From an uncultured Gammaproteobacteria bacterium (lineage in GTDB: Bacteria; Patescibacteriota; Microgenomatia; Daviesbacterales; UBA10151), in contig CAYHYM010000006.1 of assembly GCA_964360965.1 (NCBI GenBank), positions 6,606 to 38,605 of the forward strand: a DNA stretch of 32,000 nt, written 5' to 3'. Below the pieces are notes generated by a model. That model saw nothing but the letters and a program-made list of their open reading frames with translations. It did not search any database and was not told where the DNA came from. Below are positions 8,349 to 27,351 of this stretch, piece by piece. Made by a program: the position numbers and the translations under genes. Every line of letters starts with the position of its first letter. Within the stretch, counting starts at the first letter, position 1.

Positions 8349-8960
8349 TTACTCCATTGTACGCTCAGGGCCTTGATCTCTATATGTATCAATAAACTGT
8401 CCTATTCTGGCAGCATCTAATGAATCAAACTTATCCAAGTATGTCCAAGCTGTTAGGGCAAAATTGGTATCAAGATTTTGTCTGGGAACAACTATTAATT
8501 TTCTTTGACCTTTTTTCTCGTAAACTTGAGCCAGTTGATCTTTCCTTCCTTCACACTCGTCATTGCGAGGAGCCGCAGGCGACGTGGCCCGCTTCGCCGA
8601 CTCAGCGAGGCGAGCAATCTCTTCATTTTCCGAGGAAGATTGCTTCCCCCTCGCTTCGCTCGGGGTCGCAATGACACATTTGTAACTCATGATAATATAC
8701 CCATGCTCCAATGAATGAACTAAGTTTCTATCATCTTTGGGCTCATCATAAACTCCTGCCCGAATCCAGTCCTCATAATGTTTACCGGAAGTTGGAGGAT
8801 TTGAATTATACTCAACTTGTTCCCCTATTGGTACATGTCCTCTGCCTAAATCATCCAGCTTGGTGCCAGGCAAAGGTTTTGAGGATTCAATAAACAGCCA
8901 AGCAAGAAAAACTACAACCAAGGCAGCTATCACCCCTGATATAACCCATTTGTTACCCAT
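8349..8960 (-). CDS. DUF3105-like membrane-anchored protein carrying a 39-codon repeat-element insertion
   Basis: 203 aa. N-terminal TM, then HVPIGEQVEYNSNPPTSGKHY...LVHSLEHGYIIMSY typical of DUF3105 (recalled). The GC-rich 117-bp element at 8559-8675 is translated in frame. Confidence 0.7.
   Translation of the reverse strand: MGNKWVISGVIAALVVVFLAWLFIESSKPLPGTKLDDLGRGHVPIGEQVEYNSNPPTSGKHYEDWIRAGVYDEPKDDRNLVHSLEHGYIIMSYKCVIATPSEARGKQSSSENEEIARLAESAKRATSPAAPRNDECEGRKDQLAQVYEKKGQRKLIVVPRQNLDTNFALTAWTYLDKFDSLDAARIGQFIDTYRDQGPERTME
8559..8675. repeat. 117-bp GC-rich palindromic mini-element (GTCATTGCGA...TCGCAATGAC) translated within DUF3105
   Basis: Perfect 10-bp terminal inverted repeat. About 62% GC by hand count, against an AT-rich background. 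39 codons, encoding VIATPSEARGKQSSSENEEIARLAESAKRATSPAAPRND. Confidence 0.85.
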
Positions 8961-9697
8961 TAGAAGATATTTTGTTGATTCTGGAAAACTAAATCATGAT
9001 ACTCCCAATACTTATTCTGGTCCCCGGCACATCTGGCTGCTTCTGCAGACTTTTGGGCTCCCGGGTGAATCTGGGGTAATGGAAAATCCCGATAGTAAAA
9101 CTTTACTTTACCGGTATCTATATATTCCTTATTTAGTTGCTGTTCAGTTTGAGTAAAATGCCTGGCGCAGAAAGGACACTGGTAATCAGAAAACTCCACC
9201 AAAGTCACTTTGGCAGAAGCCTTCCCCAGTGAAGGTAAATCACCATTTCCCACAGTTTCTCTTTGAACACTACCTGCTGCTGAACCAGAAAGTTCTTCTT
9301 CTATCACAGATTTAAATTGCTCAAAAGGAACTGCGCCGGAAATAAGCCTGCCATTGATAAAGAAGGCAGGAGTGCCATTAACCCCGGCTTTGGATCCCTC
9401 ATCTAAATCAGCCTGAACTAAAGAGGCTTTATTACCTGAATCCAAACAAGAGTCAAATTTACCTTGATCTAATTTTAGTTGTCCTGCCAGACTCTTCAAG
9501 CCCTTAACAATGTCTGCTTCAGTCTTAGCTTGTTGAGGTGCAGCAGGTTGAGCAGCAGTAGGAGCAGCTTGTTGTGGTTGAGTTGGCTTACCCAGTTTGA
9601 TAATCCCACCATGCATTAAAACAGCCACAGCCACCATCACAGATCCCAAAAGGATTGCAACCTGGGTAGATTTTAAGGGATTTAGGGAATTTTGCAT
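8960..9697 (-). CDS. Membrane-anchored DsbA/thioredoxin-fold thiol:disulfide oxidoreductase with apparently permuted segment order
   Basis: 245 aa. N-terminal TM and Q/A/P-rich linker. The CxxC segment VTLVEFSDYQCPFCARH...YWEYHDLVFQNQ lies at the C terminus. The segment that is normally C-terminal (LDQGKFDSCL...GVNGTPAFFINGRLISGAVPFEQFKSVIEEEL) lies first. Confidence 0.75.
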   Translation of the reverse strand: MQNSLNPLKSTQVAILLGSVMVAVAVLMHGGIIKLGKPTQPQQAAPTAAQPAAPQQAKTEADIVKGLKSLAGQLKLDQGKFDSCLDSGNKASLVQADLDEGSKAGVNGTPAFFINGRLISGAVPFEQFKSVIEEELSGSAAGSVQRETVGNGDLPSLGKASAKVTLVEFSDYQCPFCARHFTQTEQQLNKEYIDTGKVKFYYRDFPLPQIHPGAQKSAEAARCAGDQNKYWEYHDLVFQNQQNIF

Positions 9698-9711
9698 GTT
9701 GGCTTAGTTTA

Positions 9712-10305
9712 TCAATTGTACTGATTTTGTGCAACAGTCAAACCTTTTTCTAAAAGTATCTGTAAAGCCTTTACTGCTTGCTTTAGCATATGTTTAACCT
9801 GCGATCTTTCTGAATGTATAAAAGGCCCTAAAACAAAATGTTCAGCATTAAAATGTATTGCTTTGTGCTCTCCGCTTTGAGACTTTAAATTGCCAATTCC
9901 AAGTCTGACTCTGATAAATTGATCAGACCCCAAAGCGCTGATTACGGATTCTACCCCATGATGTCCTGCTGCTGCACCTCCCATTCTTACCTTAATTTTC
10001 CCCAAAGGCAAATCCAAATCATCATGAACCACAATTAGATTGGTAGGTGGCTCGCCTCGCGAAGCGGGTAGCCTGTAGTAGGTAGTAAGCAGTTTAACAG
10101 CTAGACCAGAATTATTCATGTAAGTTTGAGGACGAGCCAAAATTATCTCTTCTTTTTTTACTATTTCCGACTTAAATTTCTCTTCCATTCCCCAATCTCC
10201 CCAATCACCCTTACTTCTAAATTCCTCCACTGCCAAAAACCCTAAATTATGTCTGACACCTTCATATTTTTCCCCAGGATTTCCTAAACCAACTATTAAT
10301 TTCAT
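9712..10305 (-). CDS. pth: Peptidyl-tRNA hydrolase
   Basis: 197 aa. MKLIVGLGNPGEKYEGVRHNLGF, VVHDDLDLPLGKIKVR and GHHGVESV. ATGA overlap with the upstream gene. Confidence 0.9.
   Translation of the reverse strand: MKLIVGLGNPGEKYEGVRHNLGFLAVEEFRSKGDWGDWGMEEKFKSEIVKKEEIILARPQTYMNNSGLAVKLLTTYYRLPASRGEPPTNLIVVHDDLDLPLGKIKVRMGGAAAGHHGVESVISALGSDQFIRVRLGIGNLKSQSGEHKAIHFNAEHFVLGPFIHSERSQVKHMLKQAVKALQILLEKGLTVAQNQYN
10049..10068. repeat. Fragment of the 117-bp element family inside pth
   Basis: ggctcgcctcgcgaagcggg is the reverse complement of the modules cccgcttcgc...gcgaggcgagc within 8588-8616. It encodes ASRGEPP, in a spot where I recall E. coli Pth being about 7 residues shorter. Confidence 0.5.
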
Positions 10306-10958
10306 GTTAACAATTTTACCACCTCTTCATCTAAAACAGGGTTAAATTCATTATAAAACTGGCCAACTGCTTGAAAGTATTCCGGGGTCTCTAAAACCAC
10401 CACTTCCCCAATCCGCCGGCTGGCGGACCCTAATTCCCTAACTACCCTATCTACAGCTTCTTTGCTTGCCACAGGTACAGCCAAAATTATCTTTTTAGCC
10501 ATATGTCTTTTTAAATATCTAATAGCTGAAAGCATGGTGGCTCCGGTTGCTATCCCATCATCAACTAAAATAACAGTTTTCCCCCTTACCAGCTTCACAA
10601 GGCCAGGCCTTGCGTGCCTATATTCTTTTTCTCTCCTTTTAATCTCCTCTAACTCCCTTAATACCCCTAATTTTAACTGCTCAGGCCCAATTCCAAGTTC
10701 ACTTAACAATCCTTCTTCCCAAAACACCTCACCATCCGGGCCTACAGCTCCCAAAGCCAGTTCAGGCTGATTAGGGGCGCCAATTTTTCTGGTGACGACA
10801 ATATCTAAAGGTAACCTAAGCTGGCTGGCCACTTCTTTGGCCACTGCCACCCCTCCTCTGGGAATACCTAAAACAATTGCATCCCCAACATTCCTAAACT
10901 CCCCAAGTCTTTGAGCCAGTAATTTTCCAGCTGCTTGTCTATCTTTGAATATCTTCAT
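10302..10958 (-). CDS. Phosphoribosyltransferase-family protein
   Basis: 218 aa. PRPP-binding motif KTVILVDDGIATGATM and N-terminal VLGIPRGGV. Confidence 0.75.
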   Translation of the reverse strand: MKIFKDRQAAGKLLAQRLGEFRNVGDAIVLGIPRGGVAVAKEVASQLRLPLDIVVTRKIGAPNQPELALGAVGPDGEVFWEEGLLSELGIGPEQLKLGVLRELEEIKRREKEYRHARPGLVKLVRGKTVILVDDGIATGATMLSAIRYLKRHMAKKIILAVPVASKEAVDRVVRELGSASRRIGEVVVLETPEYFQAVGQFYNEFNPVLDEEVVKLLT

Positions 10959-10972
10959 AATATATCAGGAGC

Positions 10973-11010
10973 AGCGAAGTCACAATCCCACCCTGTGACG
11001 AGCTACGACC
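10973..11010. repeat. Intergenic GC-rich repeat module (agcgaagtc...tacgacc type)
   Basis: Shares both ends (agcgaagtc and tacgacc) with 22386-22420. Contains the internal hairpin gtcaca-N9-tgtgac. Confidence 0.5.
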
Positions 11011-12399
11011 TTAATCAAAAAGCCCTAATTGTGGAGCTTCAACTTGCTCCTCTTTAGCCGGATCCACTCCATCCTGCCATATCTTCACCACTCCATAAAC
11101 TCCATCATAGCCTGGGTCAATCACCAAATCTCCTAATCTTGCCTTTTCCACTCCTTCTGCTATTTTTGAGTCGGATATTTTTGTTATTTCAGAAGTTTCA
11201 ATCTTAGTTAATATTTTTAGCTCATTTCCCAATATCTTTGTTAACTTTTTATACTCATTTAATACTTTTTGGCTTGTTACAGAGGACTTTAATGCTTCTG
11301 AAATAATTTGTAAAAAAGGCACCAACATTCTATATCCGGGCCTATTTGCCATTGTTTGGCTTTTTATTACCCCATTCTCCCTGATCACCCCCAACTCACT
11401 AACATCCCTAACTGCAATCTCCTCCACTCTTTCCATCACCCCCACAGTCAAACCCCGACCGCATTTGGGGCAGGTAGCCCCTTTGGTTTTGGTATCCTCA
11501 GGAGAATATTTAATATTGCAATTTCTATGCCCGGTATAATGATACTTCCCTTCTTCAGGATAAAACTCAATAGTTCCTGCCACCTTGTCATCCCCGCGTA
11601 GGCGGGGATCCAATTTCGAACTAGAGTTGTTTAATTGGATTCCTGCATTCGCAGGAATGACGGTAGGGCTTTTAATTGCTCTATATAAACCATAATAGCT
11701 GAACTCTCCTTCTATGACTGTTGCCTCCCTACCCAAATTTGGTAAAGAATGAGCATCAGAAAAAGAAACAATAGATCTATTATCCAACTCCTTTATCCGC
11801 CAATTCATGGCCGGGTCGCTCGAGAGTCCTGTCTCAATTCCATAGATGTAATCTGTCAAATCTTCAAAACAGTCTTCCAAAGAATCATACCCTGATTCTG
11901 AACCAAATATTCCAAACCAGGGAGTCCAGGCATGCGCCGGGATAAAAAGGGTCTTTTCAGATGCTTGCAAAGCTAAACTTAATAAATCTTTGGAAGAAAT
12001 CCCCACAATCGGTCTTCCGTCAGAACCTAAAGTTGCCCTTCTTGATAAGAGGGCTTTTTGAAAAGCTTCAGCTGAAGCAAAATCAGGCATAAAAACCAGA
12101 TTGTGAACTCTTCTTACTCTACCTTTATGAGAATAAATAGAGGCAATCTCCACAGTTAAAACAAACTTGACCTCACTTCCAGCCAAAGGCTGGTCGTCCT
12201 TTGGACGAAAAAACCCTGATCCATCTTCTTTAAGCTGGCTTTTAAGTTCTGCAAACCAGAGAGGGTGTAAAAAATCCCCTGTCCCCAAAAGATCAATTCC
12301 CTTCAGCTTTGCCCACTCTGCTAGGTTCGGAATATTCAATTGTGGCGAACATGCCCTGGAAAACCTGGAATGAATATGCAAATCAGCTACATATGCCAT
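11011..12399 (-). CDS. PHP-domain endonuclease Q-like protein (TIGR00375-type) with zinc ribbon
   Basis: MAYVADLHIHSRFSRA, GTGDFLHPLW, FIPAHAWTPWFGIFGS, SSDPAMNWR, SFSDAHS, IEFYPEEGKYHYTGHR and CPKCGRGLTVGVMERV. The preferred ATG 12397-12399 lies 1 nt after the ligase stop (TAAtATG). The track's TTG at 12432 lies inside the ligase gene. The 75-bp element at 11587-11661 is translated in frame. Confidence 0.7.
   Translation of the reverse strand: MAYVADLHIHSRFSRACSPQLNIPNLAEWAKLKGIDLLGTGDFLHPLWFAELKSQLKEDGSGFFRPKDDQPLAGSEVKFVLTVEIASIYSHKGRVRRVHNLVFMPDFASAEAFQKALLSRRATLGSDGRPIVGISSKDLLSLALQASEKTLFIPAHAWTPWFGIFGSESGYDSLEDCFEDLTDYIYGIETGLSSDPAMNWRIKELDNRSIVSFSDAHSLPNLGREATVIEGEFSYYGLYRAIKSPTVIPANAGIQLNNSSSKLDPRLRGDDKVAGTIEFYPEEGKYHYTGHRNCNIKYSPEDTKTKGATCPKCGRGLTVGVMERVEEIAVRDVSELGVIRENGVIKSQTMANRPGYRMLVPFLQIISEALKSSVTSQKVLNEYKKLTKILGNELKILTKIETSEITKISDSKIAEGVEKARLGDLVIDPGYDGVYGVVKIWQDGVDPAKEEQVEAPQLGLFD
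11587..11661. repeat. 75-bp two-hairpin palindromic element translated within the EndoQ-like gene
   Basis: gtcatccccgcgtaggcggggatccaatttcgaactagagttgtttaattggattcctgcattcgcaggaatgac. 25 codons, VIPANAGIQLNNSSSKLDPRLRGDD. 66/75 identical by hand alignment to 20919-20993. Confidence 0.9.
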
Positions 12400-12400
12400 A

Positions 12401-14170
12401 TTATTTTTGGTATTGTTGATTATACATCTCAATTAACTCTTTAACTGTAGTGGCATCTTCAGCTTTTTTATCAGCCTCACGGAATTTAACTAAACGAGGA
12501 AACCTTAGGGCATATCCAGCCTGTCCTGAGCCTGCCGAAGGAGTTCTATCCATCCCGGCTGTATGATTTGGGGATCTGGTAATTTCATCTGCCAAAACTT
12601 CTATTACAATTTCCGGAGCTATCCAGACAGAAGGAACCAAGATAGCATTAACTCTGGCTGGTTTTTTATCTACCTTGATTTTGTCTGCTTTTTTGTGTAC
12701 CTCCCTCCATTCCTCATCTGTTAAACCTGTGCCAATTTTAGACACTGTCACAAATTCATCTTTTTTATCATCATAAACTCCTACCAATAGTGCCCCGGCA
12801 CCAAAAGCAGACCTCTTTCCTTTTCCAAAAATATATCCTAAAATTACACAATCAATGGTATCTTTTAACTCCCCGCTTGAATGTCTTTTCAGTTTTACCC
12901 AGTTAAAATTCCTGGCCCCTGCCTCATATTTGGAAGTGGGCCTTTTAACAATTAACCCCTCCAAACCTTTAGTGAGCGCATCATCAAAAAGTTCCTGTAT
13001 TCTGTCTGATGAATCCGTAATCTCACCTACTTCTGGAATTAATACTTCATTACCCTTGATTCTTGATTCTAAAAGCTTGATTCTCTCTCTTAATGGAGTA
13101 TCCATTAAAGATTTACCATCCAAATACATCACATCAAATACAAAAGCTTTTAATGGAAGCTTTGCCGCCATTTCCTCAATTCCATATTTGCGACGCCTTT
13201 TAGTGGTCTCCTGAAAAGGTAAAAATTCTTCAGATACCGGATTAAAAGCCAGGGCTTCTGAATCTAAAATTGCAGTTTTTGCTTTTACTTGTGACAAAAC
13301 TCCTTGGATAATATCCGGAAACATGGGGGTAGTTTCCTCTAAATTTCTGGAGAATAACCTAATTTTATCCCCGTCTTTGTGAATCTGTACTCTAAACCCG
13401 TCAAATTTTTGTTGCACATGAGCCTCCCAGCCAAATTTTTCCAGAATTGTTTTTGGATCCGGTAATCTTTCTGCCAATTGTGATCTGATGGGTCGACCTA
13501 CAGTTACATCCAATCCCCGAACTCCCCGAATCCCCCGACTCCACAAAATTTCTCCAATCAAACCTAAATCAGAAACGCGGTTATAAGCAGCCTCAAGAAT
13601 GGGTCGTTTGGCCCTGTCCCGAGCGAATACGAGGGCAAAAGCATCCAAAATTGTCGGGTCACCAATTCCCAATCTTGACACTCCCAAAGGAATCCTGACT
13701 AAATGCTTGGCACCTATTCCGTCTACTTTTTGTAAAAGTCCAGCCAAGCTGGATATTTTCTTTTCCACTGTTCCCTCCCCTGTGGTCTTTGCTATATTCC
13801 TAAGTGTTTCGAATACTTCATTTACTGTCATCCCGAATTTATTTCGGGATCTCTTTTGAGATTCTGAAACAAGTTCAGAATGACGTTCGGCTACCAATCC
13901 TAAATCCCCTATCCTTCCATATTCTTTGAGTACCTGCTCACGTTCTATTCCATAAGTTCTGGCCATGGCAGCTGCCACACTTTTCTCTGCCATGCCAATC
14001 TCTAATGGTTCATAAAATGGGGCCACCCTACCTTGTAGCAAATAACAAACCTTGGCTATCTCATCAGACTTTACTTTAGAAAAAAGCTCAGCCAAAATAT
14101 CAATCAGGACCAGTCTTGATGAGGTTCCTTCAAGTTTTTCAAAATACTCAGTCAGTTTTGCAAATAACAT
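12401..14170 (-). CDS. ATP-dependent DNA ligase (LigI/archaeal type)
   Basis: Adenylation motif QQKFDGFRVQIH, EGLIVK and LRFPRLVKFREADK. N-terminal DNA-binding-domain pattern FAKLTEYFEKLEGTSSRL. The preferred ATG 14168-14170 is preceded by AGGAAAC. The track's GTG at 14200 extends the ORF into a repeat solo arm (peptide SSLRRQGN). Confidence 0.85.
   Translation of the reverse strand: MLFAKLTEYFEKLEGTSSRLVLIDILAELFSKVKSDEIAKVCYLLQGRVAPFYEPLEIGMAEKSVAAAMARTYGIEREQVLKEYGRIGDLGLVAERHSELVSESQKRSRNKFGMTVNEVFETLRNIAKTTGEGTVEKKISSLAGLLQKVDGIGAKHLVRIPLGVSRLGIGDPTILDAFALVFARDRAKRPILEAAYNRVSDLGLIGEILWSRGIRGVRGLDVTVGRPIRSQLAERLPDPKTILEKFGWEAHVQQKFDGFRVQIHKDGDKIRLFSRNLEETTPMFPDIIQGVLSQVKAKTAILDSEALAFNPVSEEFLPFQETTKRRRKYGIEEMAAKLPLKAFVFDVMYLDGKSLMDTPLRERIKLLESRIKGNEVLIPEVGEITDSSDRIQELFDDALTKGLEGLIVKRPTSKYEAGARNFNWVKLKRHSSGELKDTIDCVILGYIFGKGKRSAFGAGALLVGVYDDKKDEFVTVSKIGTGLTDEEWREVHKKADKIKVDKKPARVNAILVPSVWIAPEIVIEVLADEITRSPNHTAGMDRTPSAGSGQAGYALRFPRLVKFREADKKAEDATTVKELIEMYNQQYQK
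12519..12543. repeat. Possible cctgagc...ccgaagg module fragment inside the ligase gene
   Basis: cctgtcctgagcctgccgaaggag resembles cctgagcgaggccgaagg at 21067-21087. It encodes PSAGSGQAG. Confidence 0.35.
13827..13884. repeat. About 58-bp two-hairpin palindromic element translated within the ligase gene
   Basis: gtcatcccgaatttatttcgggatctcttttgagattctgaaacaagttcagaatgac. Same GTCAT...ggatctc/gagattc...ATGAC architecture as 21718-21786. It is read in a different phase (HSELVSESQKRSRNKFGMT). Confidence 0.8.
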
Positions 14171-14177
14171 AAAGTTT

Positions 14178-14198
14178 CCTTGCCTTCGCAGGGACGAC
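14178..14198. repeat. Solo right arm of the 75-bp element in the ligase/GGDEF divergent intergenic region
   Basis: ccttgccttcgcagggacgac matches ccctgcattcgcagggacgac (20973-20993) at 19/21 positions. Confidence 0.65.
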
Positions 14199-14248
14199 AC
14201 TATGTGTCGATTGTAATAGATTAAGCAAATATTGTAAAATATGTTGCT

Positions 14249-16896: not shown

Positions 16897-17172
16897 ATGG
16901 CTAAACATACTAAAAAGGTTGAAGAGAGATCCTTTCATAGAGAGCTGATCCAACAACTAGTCACTCTTTCTACTTCTGGATTTGGTCTAGTAGCAGCGCT
17001 GGCCTGGAATGAGGTGGTACAAACCTTTGTCAAAGAGTACATTCAAAGGTTTTACCCGGACCAAGCAGGAGTGATCTCCAAATTCATCTATGCCATCATC
17101 ATTACAGCTTTTGCTGTCTTTATCACCTATCAACTGTCCCGCCTGGCATCCCGCTTTTCCAACAAGAATTAG
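16897..17172 (+). CDS. Small two-TM membrane protein, function unknown
   Basis: 91 aa. Hydrophobic helices LVTLSTSGFGLVAALAWNE and FIYAIIITAFAVFITY. Its stop overlaps the recF stop (convergent). Confidence 0.55.
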   Translation: MAKHTKKVEERSFHRELIQQLVTLSTSGFGLVAALAWNEVVQTFVKEYIQRFYPDQAGVISKFIYAIIITAFAVFITYQLSRLASRFSNKN

Positions 17173-19620: not shown

Positions 19621-20271
19621 CTAAATATTTTGCCAAAAAAGATGGGGGGAGTACACAATCCAGTCGTGTCCTTGATCCTTTAGTACTATCAATTTAGACC
19701 TTGGAATGGCTTTTTGTAGTGCTCTACCTTGCCATAAAGAGTTTAAAACATCCTTTTCACCCCACATAATAATGGTGTAGTTTTTAATTTTAGATCCTTG
19801 TTCTTTTAAATCTACTTTAAAGGCATAACGCCCTAGTTTTATATGCATGGGAAGTTTTCTTATAAGATATCCTGAATTGGTGAAAAACTTGACTAACTTC
19901 GTATGCCCCCTGGTGAATAAATTTCGCAGCAAATTATTGGAAAGTTCAAAAATAGTCTCTTGACCATAAACTCCAGCTGAATCTACCAGATATAACTTAT
20001 CAACCATTTCAGGATAGTGCATAGCAAACTCCATGGCCATAGCTCCACCTAAAGAATGTCCTATTAAACTCACCTTATTAAGATTTCTGGCTTTAAGGAA
20101 ACTGACAAACTGATCTATAAAATCATCGATATTGCCAGTAGGGATAATCTCATGGTGATTGGCGACAATCACTTTATAACCCTTGGGGGCACTATCAACT
20201 AACCTTTTATATGATCTCTCACTCCTAGTCCATCCAGGAAGAACAACTAAAATTTCTGACATTTTGGACAA
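19621..20271 (-). CDS. Alpha/beta-fold hydrolase
   Basis: 216 aa. Nucleophile elbow LIGHSLGGAMA and C-terminal GHDW histidine. Confidence 0.7.
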   Translation of the reverse strand: MSKMSEILVVLPGWTRSERSYKRLVDSAPKGYKVIVANHHEIIPTGNIDDFIDQFVSFLKARNLNKVSLIGHSLGGAMAMEFAMHYPEMVDKLYLVDSAGVYGQETIFELSNNLLRNLFTRGHTKLVKFFTNSGYLIRKLPMHIKLGRYAFKVDLKEQGSKIKNYTIIMWGEKDVLNSLWQGRALQKAIPRSKLIVLKDQGHDWIVYSPHLFWQNI

Positions 20272-21215
20272 AAGTATGTTCCCCTTCCTCTCAATTGTAC
20301 CTTTTTAATTTCTGTTCCACAGATCTTGCACGGATGTCTATCTCTACCATAAACAAAAGCATAGTCTAAAAAATAGCCTTTGTGACCCTCAGTATCCACA
20401 AAATGGGCCCTGGTGGAACCACCATGCTTAATACCATCCCTTAGCGCCCTGATCAACCCGTCATACAGTGCTTGAAACTGTTTATCAATCAGATTAACCA
20501 CTTTAGTGCGGGGATCAATTTTGGCATTAAAACAAGCCTCGTTGGCATAAATATTTCCCACTCCGGAAACCACTGTTTGATCCATAATCGCCACTTTCAC
20601 AGGCATATTTTTATGTTTTAAAAGATTTTCTTTTAATACTTGCCAGCTAAATCCTTTTTCCAGGGGCTCTGGCCCTAAGTTTTTTAGATCCTTCGCTTCG
20701 CTCAGGATGACAGTGGGCATCACTTTAATCCAGCCGAAGCGCCGCTGGTCATTAAAATAAAGATGGGATCCATTACTGAAGCTAAAAATAACCCTGGTAT
20801 GGGAATTGGGCATTTTACCCACCATATCAGGAGTTGGATGGCCACCAACAAAACGTTTGCCGTCCTCATATATGAGCTGGCCTGTCATTTTCAGATGAAA
20901 AAGTAAGGTTACCCCAACGTCATTCCCGCGGAGGCGGGAATCCAATTCCGAACTAGAGTTTTCTAATTGGATCCCTGCATTCGCAGGGACGACGTCCACT
21001 CCTATATACTTACCTTTTCTCCAGATATTGAGCACTTTCTTACCCTGTAAGCCCTGAGTGAAGCCCGCCCTGAGCGAGGCCGAAGGGTCGAAGGGTTTAC
21101 CATTTTGATTTAAGAAAGATTTAGCAGAAAGTATTTGAATTTTCTTAATGATTAAACCAACTATTTTCTTTTCTAAACCTAGTTTGATAGTTTCTACTTC
21201 AGGAAGTTCTGGCAT
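20247..21215 (-). CDS. mutM: Formamidopyrimidine-DNA glycosylase (Fpg/MutM) with three repeat-derived in-frame segments
   Basis: MPELPEVETI (the catalytic Pro2 requires the ATG at 21213-21215, not the track's 21227). LGPEP, GVGNIYANEA and zinc finger CKICGTEIKKVQLRGRGTYFCPKCQ. About 50 aa longer than E. coli Fpg as I recall it. Confidence 0.9.
   Translation of the reverse strand: MPELPEVETIKLGLEKKIVGLIIKKIQILSAKSFLNQNGKPFDPSASLRAGFTQGLQGKKVLNIWRKGKYIGVDVVPANAGIQLENSSSELDSRLRGNDVGVTLLFHLKMTGQLIYEDGKRFVGGHPTPDMVGKMPNSHTRVIFSFSNGSHLYFNDQRRFGWIKVMPTVILSEAKDLKNLGPEPLEKGFSWQVLKENLLKHKNMPVKVAIMDQTVVSGVGNIYANEACFNAKIDPRTKVVNLIDKQFQALYDGLIRALRDGIKHGGSTRAHFVDTEGHKGYFLDYAFVYGRDRHPCKICGTEIKKVQLRGRGTYFCPKCQKF
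20686..20711. repeat. 26-bp solo arm (agatccttcgcttcgctcaggatgac) inside fpg
   Basis: Its reverse complement gtcatcctgagcgaagcgaaggatct matches the left arm of 21718-21786. It encodes VILSEAKDL. Confidence 0.7.
20919..20993. repeat. 75-bp two-hairpin palindromic element translated within fpg
   Basis: gtcattcccgcggaggcgggaatccaattccgaactagagttttctaattggatccctgcattcgcagggacgac. 25 codons, VVPANAGIQLENSSSELDSRLRGND. Confidence 0.9.
21052..21095. repeat. ccctgag...gggtcgaaggg module cluster inside fpg
   Basis: ccctgagtg, ccctgagcgagg and gggtcgaaggg are the same modules as in intergenic 22381-22448. It encodes PFDPSASLRAGFTQG. Confidence 0.6.
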
Positions 21216-22371
21216 GTTTTTGGACAAGATCTAAAATCTCTTCCTTAAACCTTTCTTTGGAAAATTTTTGAGATTGCCTTAGGCAGTCTTCAGGTTTAAA
21301 TTTGGCAGGATCAAACTTTTTTAAAGCTGCCATAAGATTGTCTGTTGTTACCGTGCCAGGACCTCCGTAAAGTAAACCAGTCTTACCATCCACCACACTT
21401 TCTAAAAACCCACCAGCCTTTGGGGCTATTACTGGAGTTCCTGTGGCCATACTCTCAACAGGCACTATACCAAAATCCTCATCTTCGGATGCCACAATCA
21501 ATGCTTTGGCATTTTGCAAAAGTCTTACTCTCTCCTGATCAGACACCCATCCTAAAAATTCAATATTTTTGAACCCCGCGGAGCCTTGGCGAAGTGGGGC
21601 AATTTCCGGTCCATCCCCGGCAACCTTAAGTGGTAAACCCAACTTCCCACAAGCTTCCACCACTACATCCACTCCCTTTCCCCTTACTAGTCTACTTAAA
21701 ACTAAGAAATATTTTTTGTCATCCTGAGGCTTTGCCGAAGGATCTCCAGGTTTAATCTTGAGATTCTTCACGGAGTTTAGAATGACAGATATATCCACAG
21801 GTGGATATATCATCACCGAATCCCTTCTGTAAAATTTTTTAATTCTTTGGGCCACATTTTTTGAGTTAGCCACCAAAATATCAGGCCTCTGAGAGGTTTC
21901 AAAATCATAAATTCGCAAAATATGGTTGGCCAGTTCCCCAAACACCCTGGTCCACCAGTGTTTTTTATAGTTAAAAGAAGTTGCATACCCATATAAATAA
22001 CGCGGTGGAGTATGGATATAGCTGATATGCAGGCTTTCTGGTTTGGTAATAACAGCCTTGGCAAAATAGGTGTTACAAGAGGAAATCACCAAGTCATATT
22101 CAGATAGATCAAAACTTTCAAACATCATTGGCGCAAATAATCTGAAGGGAGAAAGAAGTTGATTTGCAAATGGAAATTTTTGCAAACCTGATGTTCTTAT
22201 ATCCCAGTCTTTAAATCTCTTTCCATTTTCCCCCATTGCATCCAAATTTACATAAGCTGTATACAAAGGAGCATCCGGCCAAATCTCACGTAAGGCTTCC
22301 AAAACCCTCTCAGCGCCACCATACTCTTTTAAATAGTCATGTATCAAAGCTACTTTTAAATTTTTATCCAT
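21199..22371 (-). CDS. GT4-family (GT-B fold) glycosyltransferase
   Basis: 390 aa. KVALIHDYL...YGGAERV and the C-terminal E-x7-E region SEDEDFGIVPVESMATGTPVIA. The 69-bp element at 21718-21786 is translated in frame. Confidence 0.8.
   Translation of the reverse strand: MDKNLKVALIHDYLKEYGGAERVLEALREIWPDAPLYTAYVNLDAMGENGKRFKDWDIRTSGLQKFPFANQLLSPFRLFAPMMFESFDLSEYDLVISSCNTYFAKAVITKPESLHISYIHTPPRYLYGYATSFNYKKHWWTRVFGELANHILRIYDFETSQRPDILVANSKNVAQRIKKFYRRDSVMIYPPVDISVILNSVKNLKIKPGDPSAKPQDDKKYFLVLSRLVRGKGVDVVVEACGKLGLPLKVAGDGPEIAPLRQGSAGFKNIEFLGWVSDQERVRLLQNAKALIVASEDEDFGIVPVESMATGTPVIAPKAGGFLESVVDGKTGLLYGGPGTVTTDNLMAALKKFDPAKFKPEDCLRQSQKFSKERFKEEILDLVQKHARTS
21718..21786. repeat. 69-bp palindromic element translated within the GT4 gene
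   Basis: gtcatcctgaggctttgccgaaggatctccaggtttaatcttgagattcttcacggagtttagaatgac. 23 codons, VILNSVKNLKIKPGDPSAKPQDD. Confidence 0.85.
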
Positions 22372-23083: not shown

Positions 23084-23109
23084 TATACACCCATACGTAT
23101 GAGTGTATA
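23084..23109. promoter_or_regulatory. 26-bp near-perfect palindrome in a divergent intergenic region (candidate operator)
   Basis: tatacacccatacgtatgagtgtata is self-complementary at 24/26 positions. It lies between divergently transcribed 22454-23047 (-) and 23148-23864 (+). Confidence 0.3.
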
Positions 23110-23147
23110 AAAATGAACCGAAGAATAAATTGTGTTATTATTAAACC

Positions 23148-23864: not shown

Positions 23865-23874
23865 AAATTGTCCA

Positions 23875-23910
23875 GTTACGTAATGAGTTACGTAATGCAT
23901 TACGTAATTA
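23875..23910. repeat. Three tandem 12-bp units, each carrying the palindrome TTACGTAA, between convergent genes
   Basis: gttacgtaatga / gttacgtaatgc / attacgtaatta. 23888-23907 is a perfect 20-bp palindrome. The last unit contains the stop codon of the minus-strand gene. Confidence 0.8.
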
Positions 23911-24720: not shown

Positions 24721-24775
24721 TACTTATTCTACCACAACCTGTCCAGATTCTTCTTGATGACGACAATCATTAGGA

Positions 24776-25144
24776 TCACCGAGGTTTAATTATCTTTTTT
24801 TTATTGTCTGGCTCTTCATTACGTCTGTGAAGAGCGACAGCTACTGTCACTGCCATCCCAGTCGCTGCTACAGCTGTCGCTCCTGCTGCAATCAGTAGCG
24901 CTTTTCCATGACCAGAGACAAAAGCAAAAATATGTTTACCCTCCTTAACCTTAGCCAAAATGCCATCATTATCTGGTCGTATTAAAAATTCAACAGCCTT
25001 ATCCCTTACTCTCTCCACAGTTTCTGGCCTATCGGGGTTTAATGGAGTAGCAACATTATCAATCAATACAATTCCAGGAATTATCTCTAAATTAGGTGGA
25101 TAATCTCCCCATGATTCTGGTAAATCACTTTTTGTTTCTCTCAT
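24776..25144 (-). CDS. Small protein with C-terminal transmembrane anchor, function unknown
   Basis: 122 aa. The ATG overlaps the polA stop (ATGA). Hydrophobic ALLIAAGATAVAATGMAVTVAVAL near the C terminus. Confidence 0.55.
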   Translation of the reverse strand: MRETKSDLPESWGDYPPNLEIIPGIVLIDNVATPLNPDRPETVERVRDKAVEFLIRPDNDGILAKVKEGKHIFAFVSGHGKALLIAAGATAVAATGMAVTVAVALHRRNEEPDNKKKIIKPR

Positions 25145-27351
25145 AAGGGTTTCATTTCTCCCCAGTTTGGGCCTATTTTCAGGTCCACAACCACTGGCAC
25201 AGATAACTTTATAGCATTTTCCATTTTGTCTTTGACCATCAAGGCCACTTTGTGGACTTGTGGTGAGCTTGTCGAACCATCACATTCAAATAACAATTCA
25301 TCATGCACTTGCAGGATCATTGAACAAGATTGCTTTGCTTCGCTCGCAATGACAGAGGAGATTTCCACCATAGCTTTTTTAATAATGTCAGCTTGGGTTC
25401 CCTGTACTGGGTGATTAATAGCCATTCTCTCCCCTGCTGCCTTGATCATTCTATTGCTAGTTTTAAGTTCTGGGATATATCTTTTTCTTCCCCAAATAGT
25501 TTCTACATAGCCATTCTCATATCCAAATTCCAAAGTTTTTTGCATCCATTCTCGAACCTTTGAGAATTGTTCAAAGTATTCAGTAATATAAGTTCTTGCT
25601 TCCTCAAATGAAATTTTTAGCTGACGGGACAAAGCATGTGGACCTTGGCCATACAATGTTGCAAAGTTCATTGTTTTCCCCACCATTCTTTGCTGTTTGC
25701 TTACTTTATCAATAGGTACTTTAAAAATCTTTGAAGCTGTTGCTGCATGAATATCCAAACCTTCATCGAATGCTCTTTTTAAATTAGTATCATCAGCCAG
25801 ATGAGCCATAATCCTCAGCTCAATCTGGGAATAATCTGCTGCCAAAATTATCTTTCCTTTTGGAGCAAGGAAGGCTTTTCTAATTTCCCCACCCTCCTCC
25901 CCTTTCACGGGAATATTTTGTAAATTAGGATTTTGTGAGGAAAGTCTACCTGTAGCAGCGCCTTCAACATTAAAAGTGGAATGTATCCGACCATCCTGAC
26001 CCACTGATTTAGGCAGAGCATCAATATAGGTGGATACCAGTTTAAAAAGCTGGCGATATTCCAAAAGCATCGGCACCACAGGATGGGCCGTTGCCAATTC
26101 ATGTAGTGTTTCCTCATCTGTTGATCTACCGGTTTTGGTTTTTCTAAAAACAGGTAAGTTTAGCTCATCAAAAAGCACTTCTGATAATTGCTTTGGACTG
26201 TTTAAATTAATCTGATGGCCTATTTTTGAGTAAATTTCTTTCTCAAGTTTTTGTAGTCTGCCTTTTAAATCTTTCCCTAATTTGCTTAAAAACTTCAAAT
26301 CTATTAAAACTCCGGTTTTAGACATTTTCTGTAGGACTTTTTCCACTTCTTGATCTAAATTTGTTGTTTTGTCATTCTGATCCTGAGCATTAGCCGAAGG
26401 AGAAGAATCTCTAGATTTTAAGTCTTGAGATCCTTCACTAGCGTTCAGGATGACAGAAGCACCTGGGATCCTTCCAATCAAACTTCTAAACTCCAGCTCT
26501 TCAAACAACTTAATCACCTCCTGTTTATCAAAATCGTGCACTTCACATGCTTTTAAATCCAACCTAATTGGGGCTTTCAAATCCAAAGTTGCCAGTTTTT
26601 TACTCATCACAGCTTGCTCTACTCCCTCAGCTAGTAGAGTTTGCAACCTAGTAGGCAGAGTTTTTAAATTTTTTGGTTGATAGATTTTTTCCACTGAACC
26701 AAATTGTTGGATTAACTTGGTAGCCCAAGTTTCCCCTATCCCATTCACCCCAGGGATGTTATCAGATTGATCTCCAGCTAGGCCCTTATAATCTATTAAC
26801 TTACTTGGTTCAAAACCATATCTTGTCACAAACTCGCTGACTCCATAAAGCCCCACATCTTGGAGAGTTTTCCTAGGCATTAACACCTTTATATTTTTAT
26901 CAATTAACTGCATAATATCTCTATCCCCCGTGATCACTATCACCTCGAGGTTTTTTTGTTTTTTGGCTTGGGTAGCTAAAGTACCTATCAAATCATCAGC
27001 TTCATATCCAGAAAGACTAAATTGAGGAATATTAAAAGCTTTGGCTACTTGATAAACTCTGTCAAATTGAGAAGATAAACCATCATCAGCTGGACCACGG
27101 GTTGCTTTATACTGAGTGTAGGCTTGATGTCTAAAGGTAGGTCCTTTTTCGTCCCAAGTTAAGCCTAAAAAGTCTGGCTTCAGATCAGCTAAAGCTTTTA
27201 AAATCATGGAGGAAAAGCCATAAACCGCATTAACCAACTCACCCTTGGAGGTGGTAAAAGGAGGAGTGGCATGATAGGCCCTGTGCAACAGAGCGTTACC
27301 ATCAATCAGAACCAGTCTTCTTGTCCTGAGCAAAGCCCGATTCATGCTCAA
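25141..27351 (-). CDS. polA: DNA polymerase I: 5'-nuclease domain fused directly to the polymerase domain, with no 3'-5' exonuclease-like domain
   Basis: 736 aa. LIDGNALLHRAYHA and GDRDIMQL (5' nuclease). DYSQIELRIMAH, NFATLYG and QVHDELLFE (pol motifs A, B, C). The junction linker is encoded by the 84-bp element at 26371-26454. Confidence 0.9.
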   Translation of the reverse strand: MSMNRALLRTRRLVLIDGNALLHRAYHATPPFTTSKGELVNAVYGFSSMILKALADLKPDFLGLTWDEKGPTFRHQAYTQYKATRGPADDGLSSQFDRVYQVAKAFNIPQFSLSGYEADDLIGTLATQAKKQKNLEVIVITGDRDIMQLIDKNIKVLMPRKTLQDVGLYGVSEFVTRYGFEPSKLIDYKGLAGDQSDNIPGVNGIGETWATKLIQQFGSVEKIYQPKNLKTLPTRLQTLLAEGVEQAVMSKKLATLDLKAPIRLDLKACEVHDFDKQEVIKLFEELEFRSLIGRIPGASVILNASEGSQDLKSRDSSPSANAQDQNDKTTNLDQEVEKVLQKMSKTGVLIDLKFLSKLGKDLKGRLQKLEKEIYSKIGHQINLNSPKQLSEVLFDELNLPVFRKTKTGRSTDEETLHELATAHPVVPMLLEYRQLFKLVSTYIDALPKSVGQDGRIHSTFNVEGAATGRLSSQNPNLQNIPVKGEEGGEIRKAFLAPKGKIILAADYSQIELRIMAHLADDTNLKRAFDEGLDIHAATASKIFKVPIDKVSKQQRMVGKTMNFATLYGQGPHALSRQLKISFEEARTYITEYFEQFSKVREWMQKTLEFGYENGYVETIWGRKRYIPELKTSNRMIKAAGERMAINHPVQGTQADIIKKAMVEISSVIASEAKQSCSMILQVHDELLFECDGSTSSPQVHKVALMVKDKMENAIKLSVPVVVDLKIGPNWGEMKPL
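25257..25278. repeat. Short cttgtggtgagc-ttgtcgaacc module inside polA
   Basis: Shares both ends with the 47-bp element. It encodes GSTSSPQV, in the segment after QVHDELLFE. Confidence 0.55.
25328..25353. repeat. 26-bp solo arm (gattgctttgcttcgctcgcaatgac) inside polA
   Basis: Its reverse complement gtcattgcgagcgaagcaaagcaatc matches the arms of the 117-bp element. It encodes VIASEAKQS, just before QVHDE. Confidence 0.7.
26371..26454. repeat. 84-bp palindromic element translated within polA at the nuclease/polymerase junction
   Basis: gtcattctgatcctgagcattagccgaaggagaagaatctctagattttaagtcttgagatccttcactagcgttcaggatgac. 28 codons, VILNASEGSQDLKSRDSSPSANAQDQND. Its arms are inverted relative to the GT4 copy. 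Confidence 0.85.

What the first reader, a model, noticed from the sequence alone, without database searches (positions are those of the whole stretch)
8559..26454. Superfamily of GTCAT...ATGAC palindromic mini-elements embedded in frame in unrelated housekeeping genes
Six discrete GC-rich segments sit inside intact ORFs. Each is bounded by inverted termini GTCAT...(A/C)(T/C)GAC and built as terminal stem, hairpin, central ggatc(t)c/gagat(t/c)c-type core, hairpin, terminal stem.

The six copies are:
- 8559-8675, 117 bp, DUF3105.
- 11587-11661, 75 bp, EndoQ-like.
- 13827-13884, about 58 bp, ligase.
- 20919-20993, 75 bp, Fpg.
- 21718-21786, 69 bp, GT4.
- 26371-26454, 84 bp, PolA.

Five of the six have terminus-defined lengths divisible by 3. 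Those five are read in the same phase: GTC-AT(T/C) or GTC-GTC at the start and (A/G)AT-GAC at the end, giving peptides that start Val-Ile/Val-Val and end Asn/Asp-Asp. The ligase copy is read in another phase.

Solo arms occur in Fpg (VILSEAKDL), PolA (VIASEAKQS) and the ligase upstream region. A fragment occurs in Pth. At least 8 of about 35 genes carry such segments.

The plus-strand phase-0 reading of the 75-bp, 69-bp and 84-bp copies contains stop codons. Every copy seen is therefore in the one orientation that keeps the host ORF open.

The established precedent is the Rickettsia palindromic elements, which insert in frame into coding genes. Here several subfamilies share termini and architecture. 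No transposase is visible in the window.
Basis: partly seen in the sequence, partly recalled or inferred. Interest (0 to 1): 0.8.

Follow-up and report, generated by a model that had tools for sequence, protein, structure and literature searches.

The report
In-frame CGTC-tagged hairpin repeat dimers
Six short palindromic DNA elements, members of the known CGTC-tagged REP / Rickettsia-palindromic-element / Neisseria NTS class, are inserted in frame into loops of repair and housekeeping proteins of a groundwater Patescibacteria (Daviesbacteria-like) genome, which extends a known phenomenon to a new lineage.

Summary
All six segments are at the stated coordinates inside intact minus-strand ORFs. 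Five are read Val-Ile/Val…Asn/Asp-Asp.

Each segment is a pair of inverted hairpin arms. An arm is (C/T)GTC, then a palindrome that almost always starts with AT, then C. The window holds 13 such arms against about 1 expected by chance.

They are insertions. Most orthologues lack them. The 75-bp element sits in two unrelated window genes and, in frame, in four further gene contexts in metagenomes.

They are not a new kind. The arms fit the CGTC-tagged REP superfamily of Di Nocera 2013 (CGTC-1 = Neisseria dRS3 = Rickettsia RPE-6). That family mostly forms tag-outward dimers and is already known inside repair genes. One arm matches the Neisseria NTS, the ssDNA target of the GIY-YIG nuclease SsnA (Chenal 2025), at 26 of 28 positions.

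In five of five related loci examined (four from Patescibacteria MAGs), a 95–98-aa GIY-YIG gene is bracketed by the same GTCATTGCGAG…GCAATC arms. The window elements therefore look like gene-less derivatives of that unit. Mobilisation by Ssn is inferred, not shown.

What is new is the lineage, the very high in-gene density and some arm variants. Interest is moderate.

The parts
8559..8675 (.). 117-bp tag-outward dimer of ATTGCGAG-type arms (left arm 8559-8619, right arm 8638-8675 on the minus strand). Translated in DUF3105 as VIATPSEARGKQSSSENEEIARLAESAKRATSPAAPRND.
   Evidence: Pfam DUF3105 matches 160 residues to 125 profile positions, consistent with a 39-aa insert. DNA fold z = -3.4.
11587..11661 (.). 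75-bp dimer of CGTC-1/NTS-type arms (8-bp stem, 4-nt loop, CCA tail) with a palindromic spacer. Translated in the endonuclease Q homologue as VIPANAGIQLNNSSSKLDPRLRGDD.
   Evidence: Three-hairpin fold, z = -6.5. Absent from five EndoQ orthologues. EndoQ identity from PDB 5zb8, E = 3e-44.
13827..13884 (.). 58-bp dimer of arms with 8-bp stem and 5-nt loop (CGTC-2-like). Translated in the ATP-dependent DNA ligase in a different phase as (R)HSELVSESQKRSRNKFGMT.
   Evidence: Fold z = -4.9. Net gain of about 7 aa relative to orthologues, in a variable loop.
20919..20993 (.). 75-bp dimer, 88-90% identical to 11587-11661. Translated in Fpg as VVPANAGIQLENSSSELDSRLRGND. The left arm with its tag (20918-20945) matches the Neisseria NTS consensus at 26 of 28 positions.
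   Evidence: Present only in the window and L002 among 17 sequences (window plus 16 orthologues). AF2 pLDDT 59-61 over the insert, between confident strands. Recovered in two independent ENA assemblies.
21718..21786 (.). 69-bp decayed dimer (ATCCTGAG / ATTCTAAA arms, 5-bp outer stems). Translated in the linker between the two GT4 domains as VILNSVKNLKIKPGDPSAKPQDD.
   Evidence: A related element sits at the same site in L007 only. Fold z = -1.1. Only 1 of 6 frames is open.
26371..26454 (.). 84-bp dimer. The left arm carries a second hairpin nested in its loop. Translated in the linker between the 5'-3' exonuclease and polymerase domains of PolA as VILNASEGSQDLKSRDSSPSANAQDQND.
   Evidence: Fold z = -3.1. 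Only 1 of 6 frames is open.
20687..20711 (-). Solo arm GTCATCCTGAGCGAAGCGAAGGATC, translated VILSEAKDL in a variable Fpg loop with no net length change.
25328..25353 (-). Solo arm GTCATTGCGAGCGAAGCAAAGCAATC, translated VIASEAKQS in a variable loop of the PolA polymerase domain. It is the same type as the arms that bracket the GIY-YIG genes in related genomes.
14174..14198 (-). Decayed solo arm (TGTCGTCCCTGCGAAGGCAAGGAAAC). It lies upstream of the likely ATG of the ligase and is the only non-coding copy.
   Evidence: family D6; orthologues start at the internal Met.
21041..21104 (-). Candidate decayed hairpin segment, translated FDPSASLRAGFT in Fpg. It is absent from nearly all orthologues.
   Evidence: 3 of 120 orthologues have an insert here. 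AF2 pLDDT below 50 at residues 48-52.
12507..12549 (-). Candidate decayed hairpin segment, translated PSAGSGQAG near the ligase C-terminus.
   Evidence: variable or absent in orthologues.

Best explanation
The six segments are tag-outward ('head-to-head') dimers of CGTC-tagged REP hairpins. This is the class that includes Neisseria dRS3/NTS and Rickettsia RPE-4 and RPE-6.

Each arm is (C/T)GTC, then a palindrome that nearly always begins with AT, then C. In Neisseria these are the positions needed for cleavage (the three bases upstream of the palindrome) and for binding (the C after it) by the small GIY-YIG single-strand DNA nuclease SsnA.

The dimers are gene-less, REPIN/MITE-like derivatives of a unit in which the same inverted arms bracket a 95-98-aa GIY-YIG gene.

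Copies land throughout a genome that is 95% coding. Only those that are stop-free and frame-preserving, and that fall in surface loops or inter-domain linkers, survive. These are translated as 19-39 extra, mostly hydrophilic, residues.

Shown here: the anatomy, the excess over chance, insertion polymorphism, multi-gene distribution, loop location, and arm-GIY-YIG-arm units in related loci, mostly from Patescibacteria.

Inferred: that an Ssn-type nuclease processes or spreads these copies, and that the segments persist in mRNA and protein. My confidence is about 0.9 that these are in-frame CGTC-type REP dimers and about 0.5 that Ssn is what processes or spreads them; the single figure given is a blend.
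For: **Anatomy and excess over chance.** The window holds 13 arms against 1.07 expected. All 15 arms carry a CGTC or TGTC tag, and 13 of 15 stems begin with AT. The arms of the 75-bp copies have an 8-bp stem (7 bp in the right arm of the Fpg copy), a 4-nt loop and a CCA tail. The arms of the 58-bp copy have an 8-bp stem and a 5-nt loop. These match the published definition of CGTC-1 and CGTC-2 and the predominance of tag-outward dimers (PMC3733652).

**Link to NTS.** Positions 20918-20945 match the NTS consensus at 26 of 28 positions, with 0 expected by chance (consensus).

**They are insertions.** The Fpg element is absent from 11 of 16 orthologues, and three others carry different inserts at that loop. 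The GT4, PolA, ligase and EndoQ elements are absent from most orthologues. Of 120 Fpg orthologues, 49 carry diverse palindrome-derived inserts in the same loop.

**They are mobile.** The 75-bp element occurs twice in the window at 88-90% identity. It also occurs in frame in metagenomes in proteins that look by sequence like Rho, the ATP synthase gamma subunit and TsaD, and in a membrane protein.

**Autonomous-looking unit.** In L021, L091/92, L094-96, L097-99 and L100-107 a single-domain GIY-YIG ORF is bracketed by inverted GTCATTGCGAG…GCAATC arms with tags outward. Pfam PF01541 gives E = 7e-14. Its residues Y9, Y20 and E67 reproduce the spacing of the SsnA residues Y6, Y17 and E64 that were mutated. 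Two of these genes come from the same Hainich aquifer project as the window.

**They are translated.** Every copy sits in an open frame, although only 1-4 of the 6 frames are open. AF2 places the Fpg insert as a low-confidence protrusion between confident strands. Independent assemblies carry it.
Against: - No GIY-YIG gene lies in the 32-kb window, and the rest of the source genome could not be read.
- The strict published SRM search pattern gives 0 hits in the window. The best arms miss by 1-2 positions.
- Only the ATTGCGAG arm type was seen flanking a GIY-YIG gene here. No cognate gene was found for the ATTCCCGCG and ATCCTGA/ATTCTGA types in these genomes.
- The arms of the 117-, 69- and 84-bp copies have 5-bp outer stems and long interiors. 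This falls outside the published limits of 8-9-bp stems and 4-5-nt loops.
- SsnA is a hydrolytic ssDNA nuclease that cuts one strand upstream of one arm. No transposition chemistry is known for it.
- No target-site duplication or conserved empty-site motif was seen.
Confidence: 0.75

Rival explanations
1. The segments are genuine CGTC-type REP dimers, but they are spread or created by something other than Ssn. Candidates are a tyrosine (RAYT/IS200-like) transposase, template switching or slippage at hairpins during replication, or recombination between copies. On this view the GIY-YIG gene is merely another frequent neighbour or target of the arms.
For: - Di Nocera 2013 found no transposase associated with CGTC REPs.
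- SsnA is a hydrolytic ssDNA nuclease with no shown strand-transfer activity.
- No ssn gene lies in the window.
- Arms also nest inside each other's loops, which suggests hairpin-driven rearrangement.
Against: - Five of five GIY-YIG loci are bracketed precisely by inverted arms abutting the start and stop codons.
- Chenal 2025 report that 71% of ssnA homologues have flanking SRMs, and that 81% of genomes with more than 200 SRMs carry ssnA.
- No RAYT or IS200-type gene was seen in the window.
Confidence: 0.2
2. The copies are kept by selection as functional DNA or RNA signals and are not merely tolerated selfish DNA. Examples would be Ssn target sites that limit or steer recombination of incoming single-stranded DNA around repair genes, or mRNA hairpins that pause translation at domain boundaries.
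For: - The Fpg copy is 94.7% identical (71 of 75 nt) to the orthologous copy in L002, while the rest of the gene is 71-74% identical. Both share the derived GTCGTC terminus.
- Four of six dimers are in DNA repair or replication genes (length-weighted P = 0.034). The same tendency was reported in 2013.
- NTS and SsnA modulate transformation in Neisseria.
- Two copies sit in inter-domain linkers.
Against: - Most orthologues do without the elements.
- The same loop holds many unrelated inserts, which fits tolerance better than a specific function.
- The 69-bp copy has lost its fold.
- Gene conversion among copies could also explain the high identity.
- The enrichment test is post hoc.
Confidence: 0.15
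3. The segments are intervening sequences removed from the transcript or the protein, so they are not translated insertions.
For: - They have strong hairpin potential.
- No expression data are available.
Against: - All ten copies examined are stop-free and frame-preserving in the host frame, although most of their six frames are closed. Excised sequences would not need this.
- There are no Rfam intron or ribozyme matches.
- There are no intein motifs, and 19-39 aa is too short for an intein.
- Proteins decorated with Rickettsia RPE-1 are reported to be expressed in vivo.
Confidence: 0.04
4. The segments are ancestral protein sequence, or an assembly artefact.
For: None beyond the intact ORFs.
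Against: - They are absent from most close orthologues.
- The same DNA occurs in unrelated genes.
- The identical element-bearing gene was recovered in two ENA assemblies of replicate samples, and the protein is also listed with an NCBI source.
Confidence: 0.01

Closest known systems
CGTC-tagged REPs (families CGTC-1 to CGTC-4; Di Nocera, De Gregorio and Rocco 2013, PMC3733652)
   Same: - A CGTC or TGTC tag at one end.
- Stems that start with AT.
- An 8-bp stem with a 4- or 5-nt loop in the 75- and 58-bp copies, and a CCA tail in the 75-bp copies.
- Mostly tag-outward (HH) dimers with conserved spacers.
- In-frame dimers that encode 20-30 aa.
- Hosts that include PolA, DNA ligase and other repair genes.
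   Different: - The host phylum, Patescibacteria, is not among the five phyla listed in 2013.
- The arms of the 117-, 69- and 84-bp copies and the Fpg and PolA solo arms have 5-bp outer stems and 11-47-nt interiors.
- The tail is CTC rather than CCA in most arms.
- Nearly all window copies are intragenic, whereas REPs are mostly intergenic elsewhere.
Neisseria NTS/dRS3 and Ssn-related motifs with the GIY-YIG ssDNA nuclease SsnA (Chenal et al. 2025, PMC11893778)
   Same: - A 26 of 28 match to the NTS consensus.
- GTC upstream of the palindrome and C after it are conserved.
- An arm-gene-arm architecture around a roughly 95-aa single-domain GIY-YIG gene in related genomes.
- The Tyr/Tyr/Glu spacing is the same as in SsnA.
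   Different: - Neisseria NTS copies form intergenic clusters, and their shown role is modulation of transformation.
- The window has no ssn gene.
- The strict SRM pattern is not met.
- In-frame coding insertion is not discussed in that paper.
Rickettsia palindromic elements (RPE-1 to RPE-8; Ogata et al. 2000. RPE-6 = CGTC-1 and RPE-4 = CGTC-4 according to PMC3733652)
   Same: - Palindromic repeats inserted in frame into unrelated, apparently functional genes.
- No target duplication.
- No transposase nearby.
   Different: - A different phylum and lifestyle.
- RPE-1 is longer (100-150 bp; from my own knowledge).
- Direct sequence comparison with Rickettsia copies was not run here.
REPIN-RAYT systems (GTAG-tagged REP doublets with a single-copy HUH tyrosine transposase)
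   Same: They work alike. Both are inverted hairpin doublets that are non-autonomous partners of a small single-copy nuclease gene, and that gene is itself flanked by the hairpins.
   Different: - The tag is GTAG, not CGTC.
- The enzyme is an HUH/Y1 transposase, not a GIY-YIG nuclease.
- REPINs are essentially extragenic.

Membership tests
CGTC-tagged REP superfamily | An unpaired CGTC tag (TGTC or CCTC allowed) at one end of the hairpin. | tested here: met
   15 of 15 arms: 5 CGTC and 10 TGTC.
CGTC-tagged REP superfamily | The stem begins with complementary A and T at positions 1 and 2. | tested here: met
   13 of 15 arms. The two exceptions have GT, an A-to-G change.
CGTC-tagged REP superfamily | A stem of 8-9 bp and a loop of 4-5 nt. 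| tested here: inconclusive
   Met by five arms of the 75-, 58- and 75-bp copies, with one further arm at 7 bp. Not met by the arms of the 117-, 69- and 84-bp copies or by the solo arms, which have a 5-bp outer stem and an 11-47-nt interior.
CGTC-tagged REP superfamily | A 3-nt unpaired tail, consensus CCA. | tested here: met
   CCA in all four arms of the 75-bp copies. CTC, CTT or CTA in the others. The C after the palindrome is present in all intact arms.
CGTC-tagged REP superfamily | Mostly organised as HH dimers (tags outside) with conserved spacers. | tested here: met
   6 of 6 dimers have the tags outside. The spacer of the 75-bp family is conserved in the window, in L002 and in six metagenome loci.
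CGTC-tagged REP superfamily | A multi-copy family within the genome. | tested here: inconclusive
   13 arms in 32 kb against about 1 expected.
Ssn-related motif (SRM) / Ssn system | A match to the published degenerate SRM pattern HGTCWYN(0-2)YYVSBRHN(0-5)WNVSBRGN(0-2)RNCYNB. | tested here: not met
   0 exact hits. The NTS-type arms miss by 1-2 positions, and at that tolerance the pattern is no longer specific.
Ssn-related motif (SRM) / Ssn system | The bases shown to matter for SsnA: three nucleotides (GTC) upstream of the palindrome and a C immediately after it. | tested here: met
   This was required by the scan that recovers the 13 arms. There is also a 26 of 28 match to NTS.
Ssn-related motif (SRM) / Ssn system | A small single-domain GIY-YIG (cd10448) gene in the same genome, flanked by the motif. 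| not testable with these tools
   No such gene lies in the window. In related loci, mostly from Patescibacteria, 5 of 5 examined have the gene bracketed by the arms. The cd10448 assignment itself could not be run.
Ssn-related motif (SRM) / Ssn system | Cleavage of the motif as single-stranded DNA by the cognate Ssn. | not testable with these tools
   This needs biochemistry.
Rickettsia palindromic elements (as a functional class) | A palindromic repeat inserted in frame in otherwise conserved genes, absent from orthologues. | tested here: met
Rickettsia palindromic elements (as a functional class) | The segment is retained in mRNA and protein. | not testable with these tools
   Supported only indirectly by open-frame and length constraints.
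REPIN-RAYT | A GTAG tag and an associated HUH tyrosine transposase. | tested here: not met
   The tag is C/TGTC. No such gene was found among the window ORFs.

The most novel reading that the evidence does not exclude
Ssn-type GIY-YIG units may be the long-sought autonomous partners of RPE-type in-frame palindromic elements. In Patescibacteria the system may act as a targeted loop-remodelling process and not as random insertion followed by selection.

The supporting pattern is in Fpg. One beta-hairpin loop carries at least ten different palindrome families, read in all three phases, in 41% of 120 close orthologues. The element at that site evolves more slowly than the surrounding gene.
Probability: 0.2. 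Interest if true: 0.8.

Novelty: new member of a known kind. Interest (0 to 1): 0.5.

Why it matters
How RPE-type repeats come to sit in frame inside essential genes, and what moves them, has been open since 2000. The 2013 survey found no transposase for CGTC repeats.

This window comes from a 95%-coding Patescibacteria genome. It shows the same class at very high in-gene density. Related loci, mostly from Patescibacteria, show the matching arm-GIY-YIG-arm unit.

That gives a concrete, testable candidate enzyme-substrate pair. It also gives a rich natural set of insertion polymorphisms, such as the Fpg loop. These can be used to study how selfish hairpins add loops to proteins in reduced genomes.

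It also matters for annotation. Peptides such as VIPANAGIQ…RLRGND, VIASEAKQS and VILSEAKDL in CPR proteins are repeat-derived and not conserved motifs.

Tried and rejected
- **Strict SRM pattern:** 0 hits. With 1-2 mismatches allowed it becomes non-specific, giving 21 hits against 17 expected. I replaced it with a structural scan.
- **Literature searches:** searching for the encoded peptides found nothing relevant. Searching for the arm DNA strings led to the Ssn paper. Searches for CPR-specific reports of such elements found none.
- **Protein-database survey of host proteins:** A duplicated consensus peptide returned a single 44-aa hit, so one search was wasted.
- **Exact look-up of Fpg:** it failed from the TTG start and worked from the ATG. 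The contigs found do not extend usefully beyond the window, so the source genome's ssn status stays unknown.
- **Other GIY-YIG genes:** phmmer of the GIY-YIG protein against all ORFs of about 1.2 Mb of fetched loci found no second copy.
- **Viral contigs:** no close relative of the GIY-YIG gene, and only 10 loci with the ATTGCGAG arm pattern.
- **RNA features:** Rfam gave 0 matches and tRNA scanning gave none.
- **Target-site duplication or empty-site motif at the Fpg site:** none seen.
- **Supplementary data:** the supplementary tables of the Ssn paper are not held, so SsnA itself could not be aligned.
- **Rejected hypotheses:** GTAG/RAYT REPINs (wrong tag), classical TIR MITEs (no TIR transposase, no duplication), and inteins or introns (too short, frame-constrained).

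Full report
**1. What is in the window**

Each lies inside a long minus-strand ORF. The hosts and their annotations are:

| Segment | Length | Host protein | Evidence for host |
|---|---|---|---|
| 8559-8675 | 117 bp | DUF3105 protein | Pfam E = 1e-28 |
| 11587-11661 | 75 bp | endonuclease Q homologue | PDB 5zb8 E = 3e-44; TIGR00375 |
| 13827-13884 | 58 bp | ATP-dependent DNA ligase | |
| 20919-20993 | 75 bp | Fpg/MutM | |
| 21718-21786 | 69 bp | GT4 glycosyltransferase | |
| 26371-26454 | 84 bp | PolA | |

Five copies are read from their first base as Val-Ile/Val-Val … Asn/Asp-Asp. The 58-bp ligase copy is read His-Ser-Glu … Gly-Met-Thr.

The window is 95.5% coding. It contains no tRNA and no Rfam family.

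**2. Anatomy**

Each segment is two hairpin arms in inverted orientation around a short spacer. Read 5' to 3', every arm is (C/T)GTC, then a palindrome that begins with AT, then C and two more bases.

- The arms of the two 75-bp copies have 8-bp stems (7 bp in the right arm of the Fpg copy, after an A-to-G change), 4-nt loops and a CCA tail.
- The arms of the 58-bp copy have 8-bp stems and 5-nt loops.
- The arms of the 117-, 69- and 84-bp copies, and the Fpg and PolA solo arms, have a 5-bp outer stem (ATTGC…GCAAT, ATCCT…AGGAT or ATTCT…AGAAT) around an 11-47-nt interior that is partly paired.

A scan asking only for GTC[A/G]T, a perfect stem of at least 5 bp starting after GTC, and a following C finds 13 arms. 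Dinucleotide shuffles give 1.07 ± 1.07.

As single-stranded DNA, the 75-, 58- and 75-bp copies fold into three adjacent hairpins (z = -6.5, -4.9, -5.6). The 117- and 84-bp copies are weaker, and the 69-bp copy is no longer distinguishable from shuffles.

**3. They are insertions**

A scan of species-representative genomes with Fpg returned syntenic loci from Daviesbacteria and other Microgenomates MAGs. The closest is 73% identical.

- **Fpg.** In the alignment the 25-residue segment is present only in the window and in L002. It is absent from 11 of 16 orthologues. L003, L005 and L013 carry unrelated inserts at the same loop.
- **GT4, PolA, ligase and EndoQ.** These segments likewise fall in length-variable loops or linkers and are missing from most orthologues. 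L007 has a related element at the GT4 site.
- **Larger Fpg sample.** Among 120 Fpg orthologues (61-77% identity, 275-356 aa), 49 carry a 9-34-residue insert in that one beta-hairpin loop. At least ten peptide types are present, and they are read in all three phases.
- **Structure.** An AlphaFold2 model of the window Fpg (pTM 0.78) gives pLDDT 59-61 over the element, between strands at 84-91. This fits a protruding loop.
- **Solo arms.** They replace variable loop residues with little or no net length change.

**4. The same element in other genes**

The two 75-bp copies are 88-90% identical.

A metagenome scan with the spacer core found six loci representing four new contexts. By their sequence the host proteins look like Rho, the ATP synthase gamma subunit and TsaD, plus a membrane protein (I did not run family searches on these). 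All copies lie inside ORFs. Three are read VIPANAGIQ…RLRGDD. The fourth, in the membrane protein, is read in the other orientation as …NWIPAFAGMT.

RecF of three other Patescibacteria carries in-frame dimers at three different loops.

In the unbiased Fpg-anchored loci, 21 of 41 good arms (51%) lie inside ORFs of at least 150 aa. In the window the figure is 10 of 10.

The element-bearing Fpg gene is found identically in two ENA assemblies of replicate Hainich groundwater samples. It is therefore not an assembly artefact.

**5. Identity with known families**

Searching papers for the arm DNA strings led to Chenal et al. 2025. The Neisseria NTS, CGTCATTCCCGCGMAVGCGGGAATCYRG, contains dRS3. As single-stranded DNA it is bound and cut by SsnA, a 94-aa GIY-YIG nuclease.

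- The C after the palindrome is the key base for binding.
- The three bases upstream matter most for cleavage.
- The cut falls a few nucleotides further upstream.
- ssnA genes are typically flanked by such motifs in an IS-like arrangement.

Window positions 20918-20945 match NTS at 26 of 28 positions, with none expected by chance.

Di Nocera et al. 2013 had already defined the CGTC-tagged REP superfamily. Its features are:

- a CGTC or TGTC tag;
- stems that start with AT;
- stems of 8-9 bp and loops of 4-5 nt;
- a 3-nt tail, consensus CCA;
- mostly tag-outward 'HH' dimers with conserved spacers.

In that paper CGTC-1 equals dRS3 and Rickettsia RPE-6, and CGTC-4 equals RPE-4. The repeats are found in frame in genes, where dimers encode 20-30 aa. 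Hosts notably include replication and repair genes such as PolA and DNA ligase. No dedicated transposase was found.

The 75- and 58-bp window copies meet that definition feature by feature. The other copies share the tag, the AT start, the trailing C and the dimer layout, but not the stem and loop sizes.

The strict SRM search pattern of the 2025 paper is not met. It gives 0 hits, with near misses.

**6. The partner gene in related genomes**

L021 is a Gottesmanbacteria locus. In it a 98-aa ORF with a GIY-YIG domain (Pfam E = 7e-14) is bracketed by inverted GTCATTGCGAG…GCAATC arms with tags outward. One arm ends 3 nt before the ATG. The other begins right after the stop codon.

- The protein family has at least 7,993 members of 95-98 aa. 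They are 65-74% identical across Patescibacteria, Cyanobacteria, Bacteroidota and Ignavibacteria.
- In all four further loci examined the gene is bracketed in the same way. Three are from Patescibacteria MAGs and one is of unassigned origin.
- Two of these genes occur in Hainich samples.
- Its Tyr9, Tyr20 and Glu67 have the same spacing as the SsnA residues Tyr6, Tyr17 and Glu64 that were mutated.
- The bracketing arms are the type seen in the 117-bp window element and in the PolA solo arm.

The window elements are thus best read as gene-less derivatives of such a unit. This parallels REPINs and their RAYT.

**7. Translated or excised?**

No expression data could be consulted. The sequence argues for translation.

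- Only 1 (69- and 84-bp copies), 2 (75- and 58-bp copies) or 4 (117-bp copy) of the six frames are open. Yet every copy, including the four metagenomic ones, is open and frame-preserving in its host.
- The 58-bp copy, whose length is not a multiple of three when measured between the termini, still leaves the ligase reading frame intact across it.

**8. A conserved copy**

The Fpg element is 94.7% identical (71 of 75 nt) to the orthologous copy in L002. The rest of the gene is 71-74% identical, and the 60 nt upstream are 89% identical.

Both copies share the derived GTCGTC terminus, so they descend from one insertion. All four differences lie outside the arm stems, three in the spacer and one in an arm loop.

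Possible causes are selection on the hairpins, gene conversion among copies, or a local recombination tract. I could not separate them.

**9. Mechanism: shown and inferred**

Shown:
- the arm anatomy and its excess over chance;
- insertion polymorphism;
- spread to unrelated genes;
- loop location;
- arm-GIY-YIG-arm units in related loci, mostly from Patescibacteria.

Established elsewhere: Ssn enzymes cut single-stranded DNA next to such hairpins.

Inferred: that an Ssn-type enzyme of this organism acts on these copies and contributes to their spread, and that purifying selection leaves only in-frame, stop-free copies in tolerant loops.

Against a simple transposon model:
- no target duplication or empty-site motif is seen;
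- SsnA recognises only one strand of each arm;
- no ssn gene is in the window.

**10. Verdict**

The 'superfamily with shared termini' is the published CGTC-tagged REP / NTS-SRM class, so this is a new member of a known kind.

What is new:
- the host lineage, a Daviesbacteria-like Patescibacterium from groundwater;
- the near-total intragenic location in a 95%-coding genome;
- arm variants outside the published size limits;
- the explicit link between in-frame RPE-type dimers and arm-flanked GIY-YIG units.

Noticed in passing
window 20919-20993 and proteins P0122-P0241: One Fpg beta-hairpin loop (WRKGKYIGVD^…TLLFHLKMTGQ) carries an insert of 9-34 aa in 49 of 120 close orthologues. At least ten different palindrome-derived peptide types are present, read in three phases. 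It is either an insertion hot spot or the only permissive loop.
   Followed up: partly
window 11011-14200, 20247-21227, 25141-27351: Four of the six dimers lie in DNA repair or replication genes (EndoQ, ATP-dependent ligase, Fpg, PolA). The length-weighted binomial gives P = 0.034 and the gene-count hypergeometric gives P = 0.0017. The test is post hoc. The same tendency was reported for CGTC and GTAG REPs in 2013.
   Followed up: partly
window 20919-20993 versus L002 10178-10252: The orthologous element copy is 94.7% identical, while the rest of the gene is 71-74% identical. The 60 nt upstream are also 89% identical. The cause could be selection, gene conversion or a recombination tract.
   Followed up: partly
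window 26371-26409; L091 1975-2026: Hairpins are nested inside the loops of other arms. In L091 the palindrome inserted in the loop is flanked by a duplicated CGAAAGC. This is a possible route to new arm variants.
   Followed up: no
L004 3259-3320, L020 3215-3304, L068 7253-7277: RecF of three other Patescibacteria carries in-frame arm dimers at three different loops. The window RecF (17169-18239) has none.
   Followed up: partly
L005 about 10220-10300; L003 and L013 at the same Fpg site; ligase and GT4 loops of L009, L012, L014: Other in-frame palindromic families lack GTCAT termini. Examples are AGCTGTCAG…CTGACAGCT, read xQSSAISYQ…LTTDDR, and short KFKIQSSK or LRIKNYEL peptides.
   Followed up: no
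window 10394-10448, 12507-12549, 21041-21104, 21568-21614, 10037-10086: Further G+C-rich hairpin-like islands lie inside a phosphoribosyltransferase gene, the ligase, Fpg, GT4 and Pth. They look like decayed arms or other repeat types.
   Followed up: partly
window 25141-27351: PolA has only about 77 residues between the 5'-3' exonuclease domain and the polymerase domain, and 28 of them are the element. A 3'-5' exonuclease domain therefore appears to be missing.
   Followed up: no
L086 2855-2930: In a membrane protein the 75-bp element is read in the opposite orientation and another phase, giving the more hydrophobic …SNSEPDLFNWIPAFAGMT.
   Followed up: no
window 1036-1372 and 1-2073: A fibronectin type III protein has a 49-nt direct repeat 288 nt apart, and there are Pro/Thr-rich G+C-rich tracts.
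   Followed up: no
L108-L117: The ATTGCGAG-type arm pattern occurs in only 10 IMG/VR viral contigs, with one dimer in L108. No close relative of the GIY-YIG gene was found there.
   Followed up: no
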